64,000 nucleotides of DNA from IMG/VR virus record IMGVR_UViG_3300020469_004451, positions 1 through 64,000 of that record; one strand, written 5' to 3'. Positions 1 to 6,052 of this stretch are shown here, in pieces. Within the stretch, counting starts at the first letter, position 1. Each line of letters begins with the position of its first letter. The notes under the pieces are model-generated. The model had not been told where the DNA came from. It worked only from the letters and a program-made list of their open reading frames with translations, and made no database searches. A program made the translations under genes and the position numbers. Source of the DNA: a virus.

Positions 1-15
1 ATAGTGTCCGACATC

Positions 16-147
16 TCACCAATCCTTTTTCCTACAAGCATTTTTATTTTCTTCTTTCTTCTTAGAAGACACCACCTTAGTTCCCTTGTTCAATACAAAG
101 GAAGGGCCGCGACCAAAGGCAGCTTTATGCTTGAGAGGCTTGCTCAT
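16..147 (-). CDS. small basic hypothetical protein (43 aa, MSKPLKHKAAFG...ACRKKDW)
   Basis: Translated by hand; not in the ORF track. ATG lies 6 nt after a TATATT -10 box, with TTGCAA -35 at a 17-bp spacer. Confidence 0.7.
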   Translation of the reverse strand: MSKPLKHKAAFGRGPSFVLNKGTKVVSSKKKEENKNACRKKDW

Positions 148-220
148 GGTGATAATATACACTATTTAAATTTAGGTTGCAAATGATTTTTTATTCAAAT
201 CACATCACGCGATCACGCCA
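148..220 (-). promoter_or_regulatory. cassette promoter A: palindrome + A-tract + -35 + -10, leaderless
   Basis: -35 TTGCAA (177-182), -10 TATATT (154-159), palindrome core CGCGATCACG (208-217). Confidence 0.75.
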
Positions 221-235
221 ACAATGCCAAATAGA

Positions 236-320
236 ATGCCAAATAAAACAACAAATAGCAAATAGCTAAACAACAAATAGCTAAATAGCAAATAGCAAAT
301 AGATAAATAACAAATAGAAT
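236..320. repeat. degenerate tandem repeat of a ~7-bp unit (CAAATAG/CAAATAA)
   Basis: Visible directly: caaatagcaaatagctaaacaacaaatagctaaatagcaaatagcaaatag. Confidence 0.8.
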
Positions 321-332
321 GTAATATATTAC

Positions 333-457
333 ATAAGTTATTGATGCTCAACGACTTACGAGGCGGCGAGGTCTATTGTCGTAACTCACTGAGGCTTAAC
401 GACTTACGCCGACGAGAGGGGCGCGCCCCCGTAACTCGTTGACGCTCAACGGGTTAT
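333..457. repeat. three 27-bp imperfect palindromes, consensus GTAA(C/G)TCGTTGA-N3-TCAACGA(C/G)TTAC
   Basis: Copies at 333-359, 381-407 and 431-457 (48- and 50-bp period). Confidence 0.85.
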
Positions 458-633
458 GCGTCCCACCCGTAACCAGATGTTTCCTGATGCCAGTCTGCCA
501 TCTCCGCTTGGGCGACTGCGCGCTCGTCAGCCACGCCCTCGTCAAAAAACTGGAGGAAGTTGGGGGCGATCTCCTCGCGTTCGGCGGTTCCCTCGAAACC
601 TGCGTCATATGCTTTCTGCTGTTCTAATGTCAT
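454..633 (-). CDS. small acidic hypothetical protein (59 aa, MTLEQQKAYDAGF...)
   Basis: ORF track 454..666; start reassigned to ATG 633, 5 nt after TGTGG-TATATT. Confidence 0.7.
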   Translation of the reverse strand: MTLEQQKAYDAGFEGTAEREEIAPNFLQFFDEGVADERAVAQAEMADWHQETSGYGWDA

Positions 634-703
634 GCCCCAATATACCACAAATTCTGTAGCGCGCAATTCTTTTTTTGCCTGTTAGCTATACGCGATTGCG
701 TAT
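634..703 (-). promoter_or_regulatory. cassette promoter B
   Basis: -35 TTGCGC (661-666), extended -10 TGTGG-TATATT (639-649), palindrome core CGCGATTGCG (691-700). Confidence 0.75.
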
Positions 704-737
704 TAGTGCTTGGCATGGTTGCTGAAAGGCTATCTGC

Positions 738-814
738 GTAACTCATTGACCATCAGTGAGTTACGTCGGCGCGGGGGGCGCGCAGCCCTAACTCGTTGAT
801 ATTCAACGACTTAC
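738..814. repeat. pair of 27-bp palindromes with a GC-rich GGGGCGCGC linker
   Basis: Copies at 738-764 and 788-814, 50-bp period. Confidence 0.85.
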
Positions 815-1009
815 AGCGCGTTTGTCGCGGGTTGGAAACAGACTGGCTTCGGGTGCGCGGTGTGTCTCGCTGCCGTCCCAACTCGGTAACTCTAACTCTT
901 GTTTTTTTATGGTGTTGTTAGGCAACAGCGGTCTGAAGTCGCGTGGCTGTGGTGCGTTTGCTAGTGCAAGCATTGGTGACAGTGTTAGTGTTAGGAGGAA
1001 GTATCTCAT
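803..1009 (-). CDS. small protein with a signal-peptide-like N-terminus (MRYFLLTLTLSPMLALA)
   Basis: ORF track 803..1033; second Met chosen because it follows the upstream gene stop at 1018. Confidence 0.55.
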   Translation of the reverse strand: MRYFLLTLTLSPMLALANAPQPRDFRPLLPNNTIKKQELELPSWDGSETHRAPEASLFPTRDKRAVSR

Positions 1010-1017
1010 TTTGTTTT

Positions 1018-1194
1018 TTAGTATCCCGCCCATGCGCGGAGGTTATCAAAGGAAGTGAACTCAATCCAAGCTCCACGGCTCACGCCGTAAGATTCGGCTG
1101 GCTCGCTGTTGATGATGAAGAGCCTTCCATTGTTTAGGAAAGCCTCACGGCCCCAATCGTGGGACCGTGCAAAGCGTAGATGTTGTTGGTTCAT
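1018..1194 (-). CDS. hypothetical protein (58 aa, MNQQHLRFARSHDWG...LRAWAGY)
   Basis: Translated by hand; TAATG overlap with the upstream gene. Confidence 0.7.
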   Translation of the reverse strand: MNQQHLRFARSHDWGREAFLNNGRLFIINSEPAESYGVSRGAWIEFTSFDNLRAWAGY

Positions 1195-1292
1195 TAGTAA
1201 AAGTTTAGGATGACGTTAACGAAGAGAGCAATGAGAATGATGGCAAGCATACAGTAGATTCCGTGAATGGCTAGAGAAAAGATGTCTTTCAT
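1194..1292 (-). CDS. small membrane protein (32 aa, MKDIFSLAIHGIYCMLAIILIALFVNVILNFY)
   Basis: Translated by hand; single hydrophobic helix, coupled to the next gene. Confidence 0.6.
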   Translation of the reverse strand: MKDIFSLAIHGIYCMLAIILIALFVNVILNFY

Positions 1293-1305
1293 ATTTACAA
1301 GGTGG

Positions 1306-1476
1306 TTAAGCTAGGAGCTTGGCCTCTACCAGTTCCCACTGTCGCCCGTCGTGGAGTTTCACGACCGATGCCATTGCATCCCTGCAAGCGGCAAAGAAAC
1401 CCTCTCCTTCCCAGTTGAAGGTGTGAGTTTCGCCGTTGTTAGCAAGGAGGGTGATGATGTATGTTTTCTTGTTCAT
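1306..1476 (-). CDS. hypothetical protein (56 aa, MNKKTYIITLL...)
   Basis: C-terminal part of the ORF track entry 1306..1644; start fixed by promoter C. Confidence 0.7.
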   Translation of the reverse strand: MNKKTYIITLLANNGETHTFNWEGEGFFAACRDAMASVVKLHDGRQWELVEAKLLA

Positions 1477-1543
1477 GGTATAATGTAACACAGTATTGGT
1501 ATAAGTCAAATTGTTTTTGTGTGTTAGGTATGGCGCGATCACG
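1477..1543 (-). promoter_or_regulatory. cassette promoter C
   Basis: -35 TTGACT (1504-1509), -10 TACATT (1482-1487), palindrome core 1534-1543. Confidence 0.75.
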
Positions 1544-1774
1544 TTACCTGTAGTCTTGCTCCCACCACACCTTGCTGTCGATGTCCACCAAAAGCTGATG
1601 GTCGCCACCACCACCGAAGCGGCACACTTCGCCCAACTTGCCATCGTTGTTCTCGTCAGCAGCCGCTTGACGCTCTTGCGCGTTGCGGTTCTGGAATGCC
1701 TCGCTAGGGTATAGCGTAGCGATCTCGACGCACTCGACGCGCTCGCCGTTGTTATTAGTAAAGGTCTTGTTCAT
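1544..1774 (-). CDS. hypothetical protein (76 aa)
   Basis: ORF track; leaderless start 6 nt after TGTGG-TAAATT. Confidence 0.7.
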   Translation of the reverse strand: MNKTFTNNNGERVECVEIATLYPSEAFQNRNAQERQAAADENNDGKLGEVCRFGGGGDHQLLVDIDSKVWWEQDYR

Positions 1775-1845
1775 GTATATAATTTACCACATCATAAGGT
1801 AATCGCAACTTCTTTTTTATTAGATTACATGGCGTGATCGCGTAT
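1775..1845 (-). promoter_or_regulatory. cassette promoter D
   Basis: -35 TTGCGA (1803-1808), -10 TAAATT (1781-1786), palindrome core CGTGATCGCG (1833-1842). Confidence 0.75.
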
Positions 1846-1879
1846 GGTGGCTTGGCATGGTAGCTGAATCGGTATCTTC

Positions 1880-1956
1880 GTAACTGCTTAAGCGTCAACG
1901 AGTTACGCTGACGGGCGGGGCGCGCCGACGTAACTCCCTAAGCCTCAACGACTTAC
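1880..1956. repeat. pair of 27-bp palindromes with a GGGGCGCGCC linker
   Basis: Copies at 1880-1906 and 1930-1956, 50-bp period; the flank matches 708-814. Confidence 0.85.
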
Positions 1957-1980
1957 GACTTATCTTTTCTGTGCAACGAG

Positions 1981-2045
1981 ACTAGCGTTAGCACTAACAC
2001 TAGCACTAACACTAGCACTAACACTAACACTAACACTAACACTAC
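1981..2045. repeat. hexamer tandem repeat (ACTAAC/ACTAGC), about 10 units
   Basis: Visible directly in the sequence. Confidence 0.9.
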
Positions 2046-2251
2046 CGACGAACCGTAAGGTTCGCCAGCGCATCTCTCACGCCATCCGACATCTCTGGCG
2101 CGTTGCGTTGCTTGGCGCGCAAGCTATTCTTTAACTCCCACATCTGCATCTTGAGATTGCTTGGCACGTTAGAGAATCCGCGCTCGTCCTCTATCCGATC
2201 CATCTCGGACTTGAGGCGAAGCATCTTGTTCTTTACTTGTTCGATGGTCAT
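2042..2251 (-). CDS. hypothetical coiled-coil protein (69 aa)
   Basis: ORF track; co-oriented, just downstream of 2258..2473. Confidence 0.65.
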   Translation of the reverse strand: MTIEQVKNKMLRLKSEMDRIEDERGFSNVPSNLKMQMWELKNSLRAKQRNAPEMSDGVRDALANLTVRR

Positions 2252-2257
2252 ATTGTT

Positions 2258-2473
2258 TTACTTGTTAAGGCTTGCGAGATAGTCGCGTCCCTTTAGGTAA
2301 ACGCTCACGTTGAGAAGGCTATACTCCTTCTCGATTTCTACTTGGCAAGTAGCGTCACCCAATGCGTTGATATATCTTACGTGGTCGCGGTAAGAAGGGT
2401 TAACCTTGCACTGCTTCGCATAGTGCTTTGCAGCGAGTGCGTTAAACTGGTCTTGAGTCATTTCCTTGATCAT
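2258..2473 (-). CDS. hypothetical protein (71 aa, MIKEMTQDQF...)
   Basis: ORF track 2258..2488; start reassigned by promoter E. Confidence 0.7.
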   Translation of the reverse strand: MIKEMTQDQFNALAAKHYAKQCKVNPSYRDHVRYINALGDATCQVEIEKEYSLLNVSVYLKGRDYLASLNK

Positions 2474-2545
2474 GTCTAAATTTACCACAGGTTAGAGTTA
2501 AAAGCAAATTGTTTTTTATTCTGTTATATGGCGCAATCGCGCTAT
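2474..2545 (-). promoter_or_regulatory. cassette promoter E
   Basis: -35 TTGCTT (2502-2507), -10 TAAATT (2479-2484), core CGCAATCGCG (2532-2541). Confidence 0.75.
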
Positions 2546-2667
2546 TAGTTAAGGAGGGAAAAAGTCCAGTCAGGATTTAGTATGGTGCTTACGGCAACCG
2601 CGATCATCACGAAGACCACGAAGACATAGAGGAACAATTCGGACAACTCTTTTATAATTTCTTTCAT
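2545..2667 (-). CDS. small membrane protein (40 aa, MKEIIKELSELFLYVFVVFVMIAVAVSTILNPDWTFSLLN)
   Basis: Translated by hand; leaderless start after promoter F. Confidence 0.7.
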   Translation of the reverse strand: MKEIIKELSELFLYVFVVFVMIAVAVSTILNPDWTFSLLN

Positions 2668-2738
2668 GCCTAACTATACCACAGATTTATTTAATCGCAA
2701 GTTCTTTTTTATTGTATTGTATGGCGCAATCGCGCCAT
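2668..2738 (-). promoter_or_regulatory. cassette promoter F
   Basis: -35 TTGCGA (2695-2700), TGTGG-TATAGT (-10 at 2673-2678), palindrome ATGGCGCAATCGCGCCAT (2721-2738). Confidence 0.8.
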
Positions 2739-2741
2739 GTG

Positions 2742-2882
2742 CTAATCAAGCTGATCAGCGGTGGCCTCATGCTCGCCCCCGTCCTCATCGAAGAGCCATA
2801 CAGTCCCGTCTTCATCGACATGAGCCACGATAGCCCATGCGCCTTTGAAGTTTACTTGGTCATCTACTTTTAGTTCGTTCAT
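2742..2882 (-). CDS. small acidic protein (46 aa, MNELKVDDQVNFKGAWAIVAHVDEDGTVWLFDEDGGEHEATADQLD), SH3/KOW-like pattern
   Basis: Translated by hand; leaderless start after promoter G. Confidence 0.7.
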   Translation of the reverse strand: MNELKVDDQVNFKGAWAIVAHVDEDGTVWLFDEDGGEHEATADQLD

Positions 2883-2954
2883 GCTGTAACTATACCACAC
2901 CACAAGAGAATCGCAAGTTCTTTTTTATTAGATTAGCTTACGCGATCACGCCAT
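2883..2954 (-). promoter_or_regulatory. cassette promoter G
   Basis: -35 TTGCGA (2911-2916), TGTGG-TATAGT (-10 at 2889-2894), core 2941-2950. Confidence 0.8.
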
Positions 2955-3275
2955 AGACACATAGCTCTATGGGGGTGGGTTATTTAGAATGTAGGGTTTT
3001 ACGGTTATGTTAGACAATCAGGGGGGGGTGGTTCACATTGTCAACAACCCAATCTCAAAAAATTAAATTACATCCCCACCACACTCAACATACCCCCTCC
3101 CCCTTATTTAAAATCATATAATCACTAATTCCATTCCCCAAAAAAATAAATCCCAAAAAATCGGGAGCCTCACTTTGTTCGGACACTCACTTCGTTCGTT
3201 AAAGAAGAAAAGGTCTTATGTTATAGCCATAAAAAGTAAGTTGTTAGGCCGGTATTTTAGTGTATATTCTTAAAT

Positions 3276-4847
3276 ATGGGAAAGTTTTTCGTAAAAATCT
3301 TGGCGGCTGTCCTTTTATTCACAGGTAATGCTCATAGTGAGCAAGTTTCAGACGAAGTTTTATTGAGAAGGACATATTTAACTCTAGCAGGTAGAATTCC
3401 TACCTTGGAAGAGACTAAAAATTATTTACAAAGTCCTGACCATGACAAGTTAGTGGTCAATCTTCTTAAAAGCGAAGACTATGTTCAGTCTTTTTATAAT
3501 TACTATGCTGATCTGTTTAGAATCAAGGCGAACATTGACGGTGTGGGGTTTTTGAAGTTTTATCCTTATATTGATTGGGTAAAAAATAATATTAGGGAAA
3601 ATAAGCCTTACGATCAAATGGTTCGCGAAATGCTGACCGCAGAAGGCAAAATGATAGAAAATCCAGCCGCAGGTTACTATGCGCGGGACAATGGTATGCC
3701 ACTGGATAATTTTTCTTATACTATGCAAGTTTTTCTTGGCAAAGACCTTTCTTGCGCCCAATGCCATGATGATCCCTTCAGTCATTGGACTCAAATGGAC
3801 TTTTATCAGAGTGCTGCGTTTTTTGCACAAAATACTACCCGTGACCCTTCTGTTGGTCAGATTTCCAGAAAAATTGACGAAGAGGTTAAACAAATCAGAG
3901 AAACCGATAGAATAGACAACGCAATCAGACAACTTTTGCGCGGCAATGGTTATGGTAGCTTCAAAAATAAAAATGGAGTTTTAAAATTACCCCATGACTA
4001 CAGATATGACGATGCAGAGCCTAGTAGTGCCGTTAGTCCATATACCCCTTTCGGGGATGTTGTAAAGAGTGGTGACTCAGCCGTTTTTGCAGAATGGATT
4101 GTCAAACAGCACGACTTCTCAGTAGCAGCGTCAAACAGATTATGGGGCTTCGTTACTGGCGACCCACTTATCACGCCATTAGTTAACGTAGATATTGCTG
4201 AATCTACAAACGAAGAGCTTTCACGCAAGCTCGCGGTAAAATTTGAGGAATTAAATTATGACGTTCGCTTATTTTTGCACTTTTTAGTGACCTCTAACGC
4301 TTTTAAGCAAGAAAACGGTATAAAAACTAGAAGGCTTACCGCAGAGCAAGCTTGGGACTCTTTGGTAACAATCGCTGGTGGCGTTCCAGCGCCCATCGAC
4401 CGTTCTGGTTATTCTGATTTTGTAAATTTAGACTTAGCATCGTTAACTGGACAAGGCGCAATCGACGCTATGGAAGAATATAGGGATTTTACAAAAAAAA
4501 TACCACGACCAAAGCAAATAGGAAGCTTACCCATCGTCAGAGCGTCAGATTTAGAGAGACGCACCGACTTTTTGAAGAAGTTCGGGGCTTCAGAGCGGGA
4601 ACTGATTGATTCTTCCTCAGTAAATGGCTCTTCTGGTCAAGTTTTACTTCTTATCAACGGAGAGGTCACAAATTCGTTGTCTCATAAAGATTCAATCTTG
4701 ATGAAAGACCCTTCCATTGAGAATATTTTCTTATCTACCCTCACTAGACAGCCAACTCTACAAGAGAAGTCTGCTCTACGTCAACTTTCACCGGCTGATA
4801 TTGTGTGGGCGGTAATTAACTCCAACGAATTTTTATTTATACAATGA
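3276..4847 (+). CDS. DUF1549/DUF1553 (PSD1, planctomycete-type) exported protein
   Basis: Signal peptide; LLRRTYLTLAGRIPT, NKPYDQMVREML, CAQCHDDPF and RRLTAEQAWDSL motifs. Confidence 0.85.
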   Translation: MGKFFVKILAAVLLFTGNAHSEQVSDEVLLRRTYLTLAGRIPTLEETKNYLQSPDHDKLVVNLLKSEDYVQSFYNYYADLFRIKANIDGVGFLKFYPYIDWVKNNIRENKPYDQMVREMLTAEGKMIENPAAGYYARDNGMPLDNFSYTMQVFLGKDLSCAQCHDDPFSHWTQMDFYQSAAFFAQNTTRDPSVGQISRKIDEEVKQIRETDRIDNAIRQLLRGNGYGSFKNKNGVLKLPHDYRYDDAEPSSAVSPYTPFGDVVKSGDSAVFAEWIVKQHDFSVAASNRLWGFVTGDPLITPLVNVDIAESTNEELSRKLAVKFEELNYDVRLFLHFLVTSNAFKQENGIKTRRLTAEQAWDSLVTIAGGVPAPIDRSGYSDFVNLDLASLTGQGAIDAMEEYRDFTKKIPRPKQIGSLPIVRASDLERRTDFLKKFGASERELIDSSSVNGSSGQVLLLINGEVTNSLSHKDSILMKDPSIENIFLSTLTRQPTLQEKSALRQLSPADIVWAVINSNEFLFIQ

Positions 4848-6052
4848 ATACAAGAAGAGACTTCGCAAAAACTCTGGCAGCTTCTACTTTAGGGCTTACT
4901 TTTAATTCTTATGCAAGCAAGCCTACACCAAAGGTAAAAAATGTAATTTATATTTACATGAACGGGGGAATGAGTCATATCGACACATTCGATCCAAAAT
5001 CCGACGCTGAAGTTAAGGGTGCTACAGAAATCATCGACACCAAGGTTGATGGAATTAAATTCGGTCACAATTTGCCCTTATTGGCAGAACGAGCAGAAAA
5101 TTTTGCTGTGATTAATTCTATGACCTCTCAGACCGGCGCACACTCTGAGGGAAAATACTTGCACCACACAAGCTACAGAAAAGTGGGCAGTATTATACAT
5201 CCTTCTTTGGGAGCGTGGTCTAACCACCTTTTGACTAATGATAATTCATTACCTAATAATGTTTTGATAAATCCTGACCCGTCTCACCCATTGAACGGGT
5301 TTTTGCCAGCTAGAACCTCGCCCCTTCCTATCACTGATCCTTTGAAGGCTAAAAGTGCTTTTGATTTAAAATATGATGATAGGCTGTTGAACAATAGGCT
5401 AGATGCTCTTGATCTACTAAACTCTAAGTTCGAGCCAAACGATGCGGCTACTTCTTATAGAGATTTTTATGCAGAGGCTTTTAATATTCTAGATAGTGAA
5501 GACTTAGCGGTTTTTGATATCTCTCAAGAAAGTAAAGAGACATCTGAAAAATATGGGGCTACAAGATTCGGGCAAAGCCTTTTGCTTGCTCGTCGCTTGG
5601 TTGAAAAGGGAGTAAACTTCATTGAAGTCATGCATGGTGGTTGGGATACCCACACCGAAAACTTTGATAGATTAGCTACTAAGCTTCCAGAGGTAGACAA
5701 AGGTATTGCTGCTCTTATTGATGATCTAAAAGCGAAAGGTCTTTATGAAGATACAATGATCGTTGTTGCTACTGAATTTGGTAGAACACCTAAAATCAAC
5801 GTCAACACTGGACGCGACCACTACCCAAGAGCCTTCTCATGTATGATGGCTGGAGGAAAGATAGATGGTAAAGCAATAGGTAAAACAGACGATAAAGCTA
5901 TGGCGATAGAAGAGTCACCTTATCAGGTAGCAGACTTAAATGCAACAATAGCAGATGCTATGGGATTAGATATCAATCAAACACTATTCTCCCCATCTGC
6001 AAGACCATTCAAAGTCGCCCATAATGGTAAAGTAATTCCAAATGTGTTCTAA
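4844..6052 (+). CDS. DUF1501 family protein (Tat-exported, sulfatase/alkaline-phosphatase-like fold)
   Basis: TRRDF Tat motif; GGMSHIDTFDPK, GGWDTH, EFGRTPKIN and GRDHYP; 4-nt overlap with the DUF1549 gene. Confidence 0.88.
   Translation: MNTRRDFAKTLAASTLGLTFNSYASKPTPKVKNVIYIYMNGGMSHIDTFDPKSDAEVKGATEIIDTKVDGIKFGHNLPLLAERAENFAVINSMTSQTGAHSEGKYLHHTSYRKVGSIIHPSLGAWSNHLLTNDNSLPNNVLINPDPSHPLNGFLPARTSPLPITDPLKAKSAFDLKYDDRLLNNRLDALDLLNSKFEPNDAATSYRDFYAEAFNILDSEDLAVFDISQESKETSEKYGATRFGQSLLLARRLVEKGVNFIEVMHGGWDTHTENFDRLATKLPEVDKGIAALIDDLKAKGLYEDTMIVVATEFGRTPKINVNTGRDHYPRAFSCMMAGGKIDGKAIGKTDDKAMAIEESPYQVADLNATIADAMGLDINQTLFSPSARPFKVAHNGKVIPNVF

What the first reader, a model, noticed from the sequence alone, without database searches (positions are those of the whole stretch)
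145..2954. Array of seven self-contained expression cassettes with a palindrome a fixed 24 bp upstream of each -35
Seen: seven minus-strand units read palindrome core CGYRATYRCG, then 24 nt containing an A-tract (25 nt in unit A), then -35 TTG(C/A)NN, 16-17 nt, an often TGTGG-extended TANNNT box, 5-6 nt and ATG. Cores are at 208, 691, 1534, 1833, 2532, 2725 and 2941. The cargo genes are unrelated proteins of 32-76 aa, several of them missed by the ORF track. In units C, E and F the previous gene's stop codon lies 0-7 nt from the palindrome, so the palindrome marks the cassette junction. Established: T4-type PeSL elements and the SPO1 host-takeover region use repeated promoter modules. Inference: an early host-takeover or anti-defence cassette array. 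The palindrome is either an activator site (centre near -65) or a recombination point for shuffling genes.
Basis: partly seen in the sequence, partly recalled or inferred. Interest (0 to 1): 0.8.

Follow-up and report, generated by a model that had tools for sequence, protein, structure and literature searches.

The report
Leaderless early-promoter cassettes with near-palindrome operator
An uncultured ~100-kb marine phage drives its small early genes from at least ten copies of one compact unit (10-bp near-palindrome, A-tract, bacterial-type promoter, start codon right at the predicted transcript start); this is a new variant of the promoter cassettes known from T4-type phages, and its palindrome is never perfect in any copy seen, usually one base short.

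Summary
CGYRATYRCG occurs 7 times in the 64-kb window, all in 208-2950 (0.18 expected). Each copy lies 24-25 nt before TTGNNN, then 16-17 nt, a TRTGn-extended TANNNT box, 5-6 nt and ATG.

The window is a phage (terminase, tape measure, RNR, PhoH). The array is the start of a ~9.4-kb early region with higher GC (47% against 35%). Fifteen marine metagenome contigs carry the same modules; near-identical ones show at least 10 modules, three beyond the window's left end.

The small ORFs are real genes (pN/pS 0.13-0.34) with no known families. The core is the most conserved part of the module. It forms only weak hairpins and no U-tract follows it, so I read it as a protein operator centred near -63, not a terminator. 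The reading protein is unknown.

No copy is the perfect CGCGATCGCG; nearly all are exactly one transition away. The perfect form would contain CGATCG, which this phage lacks, along with 33 of 64 six-base palindromes.

Two gene gains or losses in relatives have chimeric modules, as in PeSL. Their crossovers lie in the A-tract/-35 or the -10/ATG, not the palindrome. Mosaic breakpoints overall are not enriched at modules.

Leaderless starts are inferred, not shown. This scan has noted similar arrays in at least 50 other genomes.

The parts
2880..2950 (-). Module G: core 2941-2950, -35 2911-2916, -10 2889-2894, ATG 2880-2882
   Evidence: core centre -63.5
2742..2882 (-). Gene G, 46 aa, acidic, starts at the module ATG
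   Evidence: pN/pS 0.16; absent from L019, L023, L025 and L028, which have a chimeric G/F module
2665..2734 (-). Module F: core 2725-2734, -35 2695-2700, -10 2673-2678, ATG 2665-2667
   Evidence: the stop codon of gene G lies 7 nt before the core
2545..2667 (-). Gene F, 40 aa, hydrophobic (membrane peptide)
   Evidence: pN/pS 0.18
2471..2541 (-). Module E: core 2532-2541, -35 2502-2507, -10 2479-2484, ATG 2471-2473
   Evidence: in L027 and L029 the divergence of the gene F 3' end stops at the base before this core
2258..2473 (-). Gene E, 71 aa
   Evidence: relatives carry a diverged 66-aa form that shares the first 16 codons
2042..2251 (-). Gene E2, 69 aa, internal, no promoter and no Shine-Dalgarno sequence
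   Evidence: replaced in L019, L021, L023, L025 and L028
1981..2044 (.). Tandem hexamer repeat (CACTAA about 9 times); right boundary of the E/E2 replacement; copy number varies among relatives
1872..1955 (.). 79-84-bp twin-palindrome element (family D2) at the end of the E unit, 36 nt before core D
1772..1842 (-). Module D: core 1833-1842, -35 1803-1808, -10 1781-1786, ATG 1772-1774
1544..1774 (-). Gene D, 76 aa
   Evidence: pN/pS 0.13
1474..1543 (-). Module C: core 1534-1543 abuts the stop codon of gene D (0 nt), -35 1504-1509, -10 1482-1487, ATG 1474-1476
803..1476 (-). Genes C (56 aa, 1306-1476), C2 (32 aa, membrane, 1194-1292), C3 (58 aa, 1018-1194) and C4 (68 aa, signal peptide, 803-1009). 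C2 to C4 have no promoter and no Shine-Dalgarno sequence.
   Evidence: pN/pS 0.18-0.34
730..813 (.). D2 twin-palindrome element at the end of the C unit, 36 nt before core B
631..700 (-). Module B: core 691-700, -35 661-666, -10 639-644, ATG 631-633
   Evidence: three alternative promoter segments head the same gene in relatives
454..633 (-). Gene B, 59 aa, acidic
   Evidence: pN/pS 0.28
334..456 (.). D2 element plus one extra arm, at the end of the B unit
223..318 (.). Tandem repeats (CAAATAG-like); length varies among relatives
145..217 (-). Module A: core 208-217, 25-nt spacer, -35 177-182, -10 154-159, ATG 145-147
16..147 (-). Gene A, 43 aa, very basic. The next gene (74 aa) starts at 14 and runs off the window.

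Best explanation
Window 1-3000 is the promoter-proximal third of the ~9.4-kb early region of an uncultured ~100-kb marine tailed phage. The host is probably a PVC bacterium.

Each unit is a strong host-RNA-polymerase promoter. It has an A-tract resembling the proximal UP subsite, a -35 TTGCNN, a 16-17-nt spacer and a TRTGn-extended TANNNT box. The promoter is placed so that transcription should begin on the A of the ATG. That would give leaderless mRNAs for small proteins of unknown function.

The 10-bp near-palindrome lies 24 nt upstream of the -35, centred near -63. I read it as the operator of a dimeric DNA-binding regulator that co-regulates this promoter class (10 promoters in this phage). 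The sign is open. I lean towards shut-off or feedback by a phage early protein. The alternative is class-I-type activation by a host factor, with the alpha C-terminal domain docked on the A-tract between the operator and the -35.

The operator never reaches perfect dyad symmetry; nearly every copy is one transition short of it. A perfect CGCGATCGCG would contain CGATCG, one of the many 6-bp palindromes this phage has purged, presumably to escape restriction.

As a side effect of their repetition, the modules provide short homology patches. Cassettes are gained, lost and re-headed between relatives at these patches, as with PeSLs.

Shown: the anatomy, its conservation, the coding status of the ORFs, the chimeric modules and the palindrome purge. 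Inferred: the transcription start, protein binding, the sign of regulation and the early timing.
For: - Phage context: terminase, tail tape measure, PhoH and RNR. GC is 45-49% in 1-3000 against about 35% elsewhere.
- The array lies next to the same DUF1549/DUF1501 genes in a relative that is 85-92% identical, so it is not a chimera.
- Fifteen marine contigs carry the module. L016 and L021 each have 10 modules.
- All 40 distinct module variants found without requiring a start codon have ATG 5 or 6 nt after the -10, none GTG or TTG. The base before ATG is C in 33 and T in 5 of the 38 variants tabulated.
- pN/pS is 0.13-0.34 for the ORF families.
- Within orthologous modules the core changes least: 0.011 differences per site. 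TGTGG has 0.022, the -35 0.037, the spacers 0.08 and the -10 0.11.
- The core-to-35 length is kept (24 nt in 33 of 38 variants) although that spacer's sequence is scrambled between modules.
- Hairpins are weak: dG is -2.5 to -11.9 kcal/mol, only 2 of 10 stand out from shuffles, and no U-tract follows. Canonical hairpin plus T-run terminators exist elsewhere in the early region.
- None of 43 distinct modules has the perfect core; 40 have exactly one transition. Nine of 11 module clusters have only single deviations (P = 0.009 under the most favourable null), and related modules carry different single deviations.
- CGATCG occurs 0 times in the window and 0 times in 69 kb of relatives. Thirty-three of 64 palindromic hexamers are absent, against 2.7% of non-palindromic ones.
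- The gene G indel is exactly one module period (216 nt), with the crossover in the shared A-tract/-35.
- An extra two-gene operon in L020 (its first gene also in L023, whose contig ends there), and the re-headed gene B in L021 and L024, have joints at the -10/ATG.
- Other early-region proteins match L5 gp82, GP88, DUF932 and DUF3846.
Against: - There are no RNA data, so the start at the ATG is an inference from spacing.
- Internal genes also lack Shine-Dalgarno sequences. The host therefore initiates without them, and the ATGs could also be read from read-through transcripts.
- No DNA-binding protein was identified. Pfam and PHROGs gave nothing. The fold of one candidate was of low confidence (pLDDT 62).
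- Relatives have the same leaderless promoter without the palindrome (L022, L026). One palindrome is kept beside a decayed promoter (L022 core 853). The palindrome is thus not needed for promoter activity and might serve the upstream gene.
- Module detection required the core pattern, which slightly favours its apparent conservation. However, no orthologous core is lost in the alignments.
- Early timing is inferred from promoter type and gene content only.
Confidence: 0.6

Rival explanations
1. The palindrome is an RNA or DNA stem-loop, as in classical PeSLs. It would act as a terminator, attenuator or 3'-end stabiliser for the upstream gene, or as the site of a protein roadblock, insulating each cassette. 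It would not regulate the downstream promoter.
For: The core abuts the previous stop codon (0-7 nt) in units C, E and F. L022 keeps a core next to a decayed promoter. Palindrome-less promoters exist. PeSL stem-loops terminate transcription (PMC2839356). Copies F and B fold significantly better than shuffles.
Against: Eight of 10 copies fold no better than shuffles (dG -2.5 to -6.7 kcal/mol) and none is followed by a U-tract. The phage uses canonical hairpin plus T-run terminators elsewhere. What is conserved is the sequence, with a mismatch-creating deviation in either orientation, rather than pairing. The distance to the -35 is fixed, while the distance to the stop codon is not. A protein roadblock is not excluded.
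Confidence: 0.15
2. The palindrome is a dedicated recombination site, analogous to integron attC or a site-specific recombinase target, at which cassettes are excised and inserted.
For: Cores sit at cassette junctions. Three mosaic boundaries fall exactly at a core edge: L027 at cores E and A, and L019/L025 at the end of core B. Gene order differs in L022 and L026, with cores at some joints.
Against: The two cleanly mapped gene-content events cross over in the A-tract/-35 and in the -10/ATG. Change points overall are not enriched in modules (P = 0.22). Other indels (the 74-aa and 158-aa genes in L017) have no module at their ends. No recombinase was seen in the early region.
Confidence: 0.05
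3. The palindrome has no function of its own. It is carried along because the whole module was duplicated and is homogenised by gene conversion.
For: Modules G, F and D are clearly paralogous. Recombination between modules does occur.
Against: The core is invariant at six positions across 43 distinct modules, while the adjoining spacer is scrambled. It is the slowest-evolving element. The exactly-one-deviation pattern, with different deviations in related modules, needs selection.
Confidence: 0.05

Closest known systems
PeSL (promoter-early stem-loop) cassettes of T4-type phages (Arbiol et al. 2010, PMC2839356; Comeau et al. 2014, PMC4122927)
   Same: A repeated sigma70-like early promoter with an AT-rich tract upstream of the -35 and a dyad element. 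The units sit between small ORFan genes in a plastic early region. Close relatives differ by a cassette, with a chimeric element at the joint, and the crossover is probably in the AT-rich part.
   Different: The dyad here is a short near-palindrome of conserved sequence at one fixed position (24 nt before the -35). It is not a GC-rich stem-loop at variable positions, and it folds weakly. There is no Shine-Dalgarno sequence; the ATG lies 5-6 nt after the -10. The phage is not T4-type (1904-aa tape measure). Mini-circles were not tested.
Class I activator-dependent and UP-element promoters (CRP at -61.5 at lac; Fis plus UP at rrnB P1); from textbook knowledge
   Same: A dyad site about three helical turns upstream of the -35, with an A-tract (AAAAAAGAA, close to the proximal UP subsite AAAAAARNR) between the site and the -35, where the alpha C-terminal domain would dock.
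   Different: The site sequence is unlike CRP, FNR or Fis sites. The centre is at -62.5 to -65.5. The core promoter already looks strong. No factor is known, and the sign of regulation is unknown.
Leaderless mRNAs (lambda cI from PRM; many actinobacterial and mycobacteriophage genes); from general knowledge
   Same: The -10 box lies 5-7 nt before an obligatory AUG, with a pyrimidine-purine step at the start.
   Different: Ten or more such units lie in a row in one early region of a phage whose host is probably not an actinobacterium. Nothing has been verified at the RNA level.
Integron gene cassettes with attC sites
   Same: Arrays of small, unrelated ORFs with an imperfect palindrome at each junction.
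   Different: Every unit here has its own promoter. The palindrome is 10-18 bp rather than a 57-141-bp attC. No integrase was seen. Exchanges map to homology patches, not to the palindrome.
Restriction-site (palindrome) avoidance in phage genomes; from general knowledge
   Same: Genome-wide loss of 4- and 6-bp palindromes (GTAC 0 against 215 expected; 33 of 64 hexamer palindromes absent).
   Different: Here the purge visibly constrains a regulatory site. The operator is never the perfect palindrome and is nearly always exactly one transition from it.

Membership tests
PeSL cassettes | sigma70-like early promoter (-35 and -10) | tested here: met
   TTGNNN, 16-17 nt, TRTGn plus TANNNT in all seven window units and 38 variants
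PeSL cassettes | [quoted passage not shown] | tested here: met
   invariant AAAAA within AATAAAAAAGAA just upstream of the -35
PeSL cassettes | stable stem-loop that acts as a terminator or attenuator | tested here: not met
   dG -2.5 to -11.9 kcal/mol; z-score not significant in 8 of 10 copies; no U-tract; no poly-G/poly-C
PeSL cassettes | Shine-Dalgarno sequence and start codon at the 3' end | tested here: not met
   ATG lies 5-6 nt after the -10, leaving no room for a Shine-Dalgarno sequence
PeSL cassettes | lies upstream of ORFans in a plastic region; differential genes flanked by elements, with a chimeric element at the joint | tested here: met
   no Pfam or PHROG hits; gene G indel and the extra operon in L020/L023
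PeSL cassettes | T4-type myovirus genome | tested here: not met
   1904-aa tape measure with PhageMin_Tail; only the terminase N-domain is T4-like; no close cultured relative
PeSL cassettes | excised mini-circles | not testable with these tools
   needs outward PCR or long reads
Leaderless mRNA genes | transcription start on the A of AUG | not testable with these tools
   no RNA data; the spacing (5-6 nt) and the Y-1/R+1 step fit
Leaderless mRNA genes | AUG (not GUG or UUG) as the start codon | tested here: met
   40 of 40 module variants, with no start codon required by the search
Class I activator sites | dyad site centred near -61.5, on the face used by the alpha C-terminal domain | tested here: inconclusive
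   centre at -62.5 to -65.5 if +1 is the A of ATG; no factor known
Integron attC cassettes | attC structure, promoterless cassettes, adjacent integrase | tested here: not met
   own promoter in every unit; 10-bp core; no integrase among the early-region proteins

The most novel reading that the evidence does not exclude
The near-palindrome is the operator of a dedicated, still unknown early-gene regulator that works through the alpha C-terminal domain docked on the adjacent A-tract. With leaderless starts, this makes a minimal 'plug-and-play' expression unit of about 70 bp. Selection against restriction sites keeps the operator short of perfect symmetry, almost always by a single transition. 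That would be a direct, measurable conflict between gene regulation and anti-restriction palindrome purging, and it may hold more widely in the many uncultured phages with palindrome-tagged early arrays.
Probability: 0.3. Interest if true: 0.7.

Novelty: new variant of a known kind. Interest (0 to 1): 0.55.

Why it matters
Promoter cassettes that both express and shuffle small early genes are documented experimentally only for T4-type coliphages and vibriophages. Here the same logic appears in an unrelated, abundant marine phage lineage, in a leaner form with no leader and no terminator hairpin. It adds a sequence-specific operator that marks one promoter class.

The units are short, strongly conserved and portable. 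That makes them good handles for finding early (host-takeover or counter-defence) genes in metagenomic phages, and for building reporters.

The operator that is never the perfect palindrome gives a rare case in which restriction avoidance can be seen shaping a regulatory site. It suggests a simple test: restore the perfect site, then measure both regulation and restriction.

Tried and rejected
The 95-kb and 82-kb relatives could therefore not be fetched.
- blastn of 1-3100 against cultured phages found no match.
- IMG/VR has no relatives of the module. Three DNA patterns and one protein query gave nothing or single chance hits.
- The strict module pattern gave 0 hits in 185,579 bacterial and archaeal genomes, so there is no host clue from MAGs or SAGs.
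- Rfam found nothing credible.
- Pfam and PHROGs found no DNA-binding protein among the early or neighbouring ORFs.
- The ESM Atlas gave nothing for the 74-aa candidate. Its AlphaFold model was too poor to search with (pLDDT 62).
- A literature search for the core sequence returned only the cyanobacterial HIP1 paper (GCGATCGC, with CGATCG and GATC methyltransferases), with no regulator.
- Terminator reading rejected.
- Dedicated recombination site rejected.
- Assembly chimera rejected.
- A regulon search for the core in candidate host genomes was not attempted, because the host is too uncertain.

Full report
**1. Observation**

Reading the minus strand of 1-3600 shows the seven units as described.
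- CGYRATYRCG occurs seven times in the 64-kb window, all between 208 and 2950. Dinucleotide shuffles expect 0.18, and none of 100 reached seven.
- The aligned units (A1) share this order: core; 24 nt (25 in unit A) ending in an invariant AAAAA within AATAAAAAAGAA; TTGNNN; 16-17 nt ending in TGTGG, TGTGT or TAGTG; TANNNT; 5-6 nt; C; ATG.
- If +1 is the A of ATG, the core centre lies at -62.5 to -65.5.
- The stop codon of the previous gene lies 0, 3 and 7 nt from cores C, E and F.
- The generic promoter scan recovers several of the units and finds no terminator-like site at any core. Rfam finds nothing credible.

**2. Context**

The window is a phage.
- It has a T4-type terminase N-domain, a 1904-aa tape measure, PhoH, both RNR subunits, glycosyltransferases and amidases.
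- There are no tRNA genes in the window and no close cultured relative.
- The array region has 45-49% GC against about 35% for the rest.
- It is not a misassembly. In L025 the array adjoins the same DUF1549/DUF1501 genes and 10.8 kb of syntenic DNA at 85-92% identity.
- The closest named relatives of the DUF1501 protein are Verrucomicrobiales, Roseibacillus, Opitutales and Planctomycetota at about 46% identity. The host is therefore probably a PVC bacterium, but this is a guess.

**3. Relatives and the true extent of the array**

A strict module pattern found 15 marine metagenome contigs.
- L016 is 99.4% identical to the window and continues 6.5 kb past the window's left end.
- L016 and L021 each carry ten modules.
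- Beyond module J the early region continues with further sigma70-type promoters that have no palindrome. Two of them are also set 6-7 nt from their ATG.
- It also holds a tRNA-Arg(TCT) gene and proteins matching mycobacteriophage L5 gp82, GP88, DUF932 and DUF3846.
- It ends about 9.4 kb from its start at a canonical hairpin plus T-run.
The record is therefore most likely a circularly permuted genome of about 104 kb, cut inside the early region.

**4. The cargo genes are real**

Every ORF family in the array is under purifying selection among relatives, with pN/pS 0.13-0.34.
- None of the ten window ORFs tested has a Pfam or PHROG match.
- F and C2 are hydrophobic peptides. C4 has a signal peptide. 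A is very basic. G, D and B are acidic.
- Internal genes (E2, C2-C4) have no promoter and no Shine-Dalgarno sequence. Nearly all other genes of the phage also lack one.

**5. Leaderless starts (inferred)**

- In all 40 distinct module variants found without requiring a start codon, ATG follows the -10 box after exactly 5 or 6 nt. None has GTG or TTG.
- The base before ATG is a pyrimidine.
- That is the normal distance from a -10 box to the transcription start, and AUG is the codon leaderless mRNAs need. The prediction is a transcript beginning on the A of AUG.
- No RNA data were available.
- The host clearly initiates without Shine-Dalgarno sequences, so translation from read-through transcripts is also possible.

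**6. What the palindrome is**

Evidence for a sequence-specific protein site:
- Within orthologous modules the core changes least: 0.011 differences per site. TGTGG has 0.022, the -35 0.037, the spacers 0.08 and the -10 0.11. Synonymous sites in the genes differ at 0.04-0.46, most families 0.08-0.28.
- The distance from core to -35 is kept (24 nt in 33 of 38 variants), although the first 12 nt of that spacer differ freely between modules.
- Symmetry beyond the 10-bp core is only partial, roughly AT(G/A)G on the left and (C/T)NAT on the right.

Evidence against a hairpin terminator:
- As RNA the copies fold weakly, at -2.5 to -11.9 kcal/mol. Only F and B beat shuffles, and no U-tract follows.
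- The same region has proper terminators elsewhere.

I therefore read the core as a sequence-specific protein site functionally tied to the promoter, not a PeSL-type terminator hairpin.
- The layout is dyad, then A-tract, then -35, which is that of a class I site. However, the core promoters already look strong.
- Relatives have the same promoter without the palindrome.
- One palindrome survives beside a decayed promoter.
- The element is thus a separable regulatory add-on. I lean towards shut-off or feedback, but I cannot decide the sign.
- No reader protein was found.
- No other IMG/VR contig carries the palindrome with this promoter geometry. That fits a lineage-specific, possibly phage-encoded, reader.

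**7. Never a perfect palindrome**

- None of 43 distinct modules has CGCGATCGCG. Forty have exactly one transition, at position 3, 4, 7 or 8; three have two.
- Those four positions are the C and G of the inner CGATCG.
- Closely related modules (G, F, D and their orthologues) carry different single deviations. The deviation has therefore moved while the count stayed at one. Nine of 11 module clusters show only single deviations, P = 0.009 under the most favourable random model.
- CGATCG is absent from the whole window (about 7 expected from base composition, 3-4 under the Markov models) and from 69 kb of relatives.
- This is part of a much wider purge. Thirty-three of 64 palindromic hexamers are absent, against 2.7% of non-palindromic hexamers. 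GTAC occurs 0 times against 215 expected.
- The simplest reading: selection keeps the operator as symmetric as possible without creating a purged site, presumably one that would be restricted.

**8. Shuffling**

Alignments of relatives give two clean gene-content events with chimeric modules.
- Gene G is missing from L019, L023, L025 and L028. The gap is exactly one module period (216 nt). The surviving module has G's palindrome and spacer and F's -35-to-ATG part, so the crossover lies in the shared AATAAAAAA(G/T)AACTTGCG.
- L020 carries an extra two-gene operon before gene B; L023 has its promoter and first gene but ends there. L021 and L024 have that operon's promoter fused to gene B at the shared -10/ATG.

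Other variation:
- Gene B is headed by three alternative promoter segments, with joints at the core and at the -10.
- The more distant L022 and L026 have different gene orders built from the same modules.

This matches the PeSL model, including the proposed crossover in the AT-rich part. Two limits apply.
- Other indels (the 74-aa and 158-aa genes in L017, and the E2 replacement) have no module at their ends.
- An HMM segmentation of pairwise alignments places 10 of 67 mosaic change points in modules, which cover 11% of the region (P = 0.22).

Modules are used for exchange but are not demonstrably hotspots, and the palindrome is not the crossover point.

**9. Comparison and verdict**

The closest known system is the PeSL cassette. 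Of its defining features:
- the promoter, the AT-rich tract, the ORFan context and the chimeric joints are met;
- the terminator stem-loop, the Shine-Dalgarno sequence and the T4-type genome are not met.

It works like a PeSL for shuffling, but it is a different regulatory unit: operator plus leaderless start. I file it as a new variant of a known kind.

This scan has already noted palindrome-tagged, near-leaderless promoter arrays in at least 50 other uncultured phage genomes, all filed next to PeSLs. What this case adds is the never-perfect operator tied to genome-wide palindrome avoidance, and the mapped chimeric joints.

Noticed in passing
window 1-64000: Extreme palindrome avoidance. Thirty-three of 64 palindromic hexamers are absent, including AGATCT, ATCGAT, TCATGA and AGTACT (about 21 expected each), against 2.7% of non-palindromic hexamers. 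The tetramer GTAC occurs 0 times against 215 expected; CCGG (17 against 72) and GGCC (27 against 72) are depleted.
   Followed up: partly
window 1-3000 against 3001-64000; L016: The early region has 44-49% GC, while the rest of the phage has about 35%. Possibly early genes are matched to a GC-richer host. Unexplained.
   Followed up: no
window 334-456, 730-813, 1872-1955; L016 (reverse-complemented) 4133, 4507, 6008, 8003, 9239: A 79-84-bp twin-palindrome family (arms GTAACTCGTTGA...TCAACGAGTTAC around GGGGCGCGCCCC) closes each multi-gene unit. In B, D and I a conserved 36-nt linker (TTCAGCNACCATGCCAAGC...) follows it before the core. The arm pairs are often not complementary within a copy, which favours a protein site over a hairpin.
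   Followed up: partly
L022 (reverse complement not needed) 571-619; L026 (reverse-complemented) 1200-1268 and 1504-1552: Relatives carry the same leaderless promoter without the palindrome. The stop codon is followed directly by ACGAAAAAAAAAC, TTGCAC, 16 nt, TGTGGTAAATT, 5-6 nt and ATG.
   Followed up: partly
L016 1110-1183 (-): A tRNA-Arg(TCT) gene sits inside the early region, just upstream of a consensus promoter set 7 nt from the ATG of a DUF3846 protein.
   Followed up: no
L016 3682-4665, 1946-2638, 2696-3172, 699-1052 (all -): Larger early-region proteins match DUF932, GP88, mycobacteriophage L5 gp82 and DUF3846. To my knowledge these families come from phage early regions and plasmid leading regions, and have no known function.
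   Followed up: no
window 3260-50000, many gene starts: Almost no gene has a Shine-Dalgarno sequence. Many late genes have GTGTAA(T) 3-25 nt before ATG. The -10 regions of modules A and C resemble this motif.
   Followed up: no
window 223-318 and 1981-2044: Tandem repeats (CAAATAG-like and CACTAA) between units vary in copy number among relatives. One of them forms the right boundary of the E/E2 replacement.
   Followed up: partly
window 3276-6052: The phage carries a DUF1549/DUF1553 plus DUF1501 gene pair. The DUF1501 protein has a 97% identical copy on a 95-kb contig. Its closest named relatives are Verrucomicrobiales and Planctomycetota at about 46% identity.
   Followed up: partly
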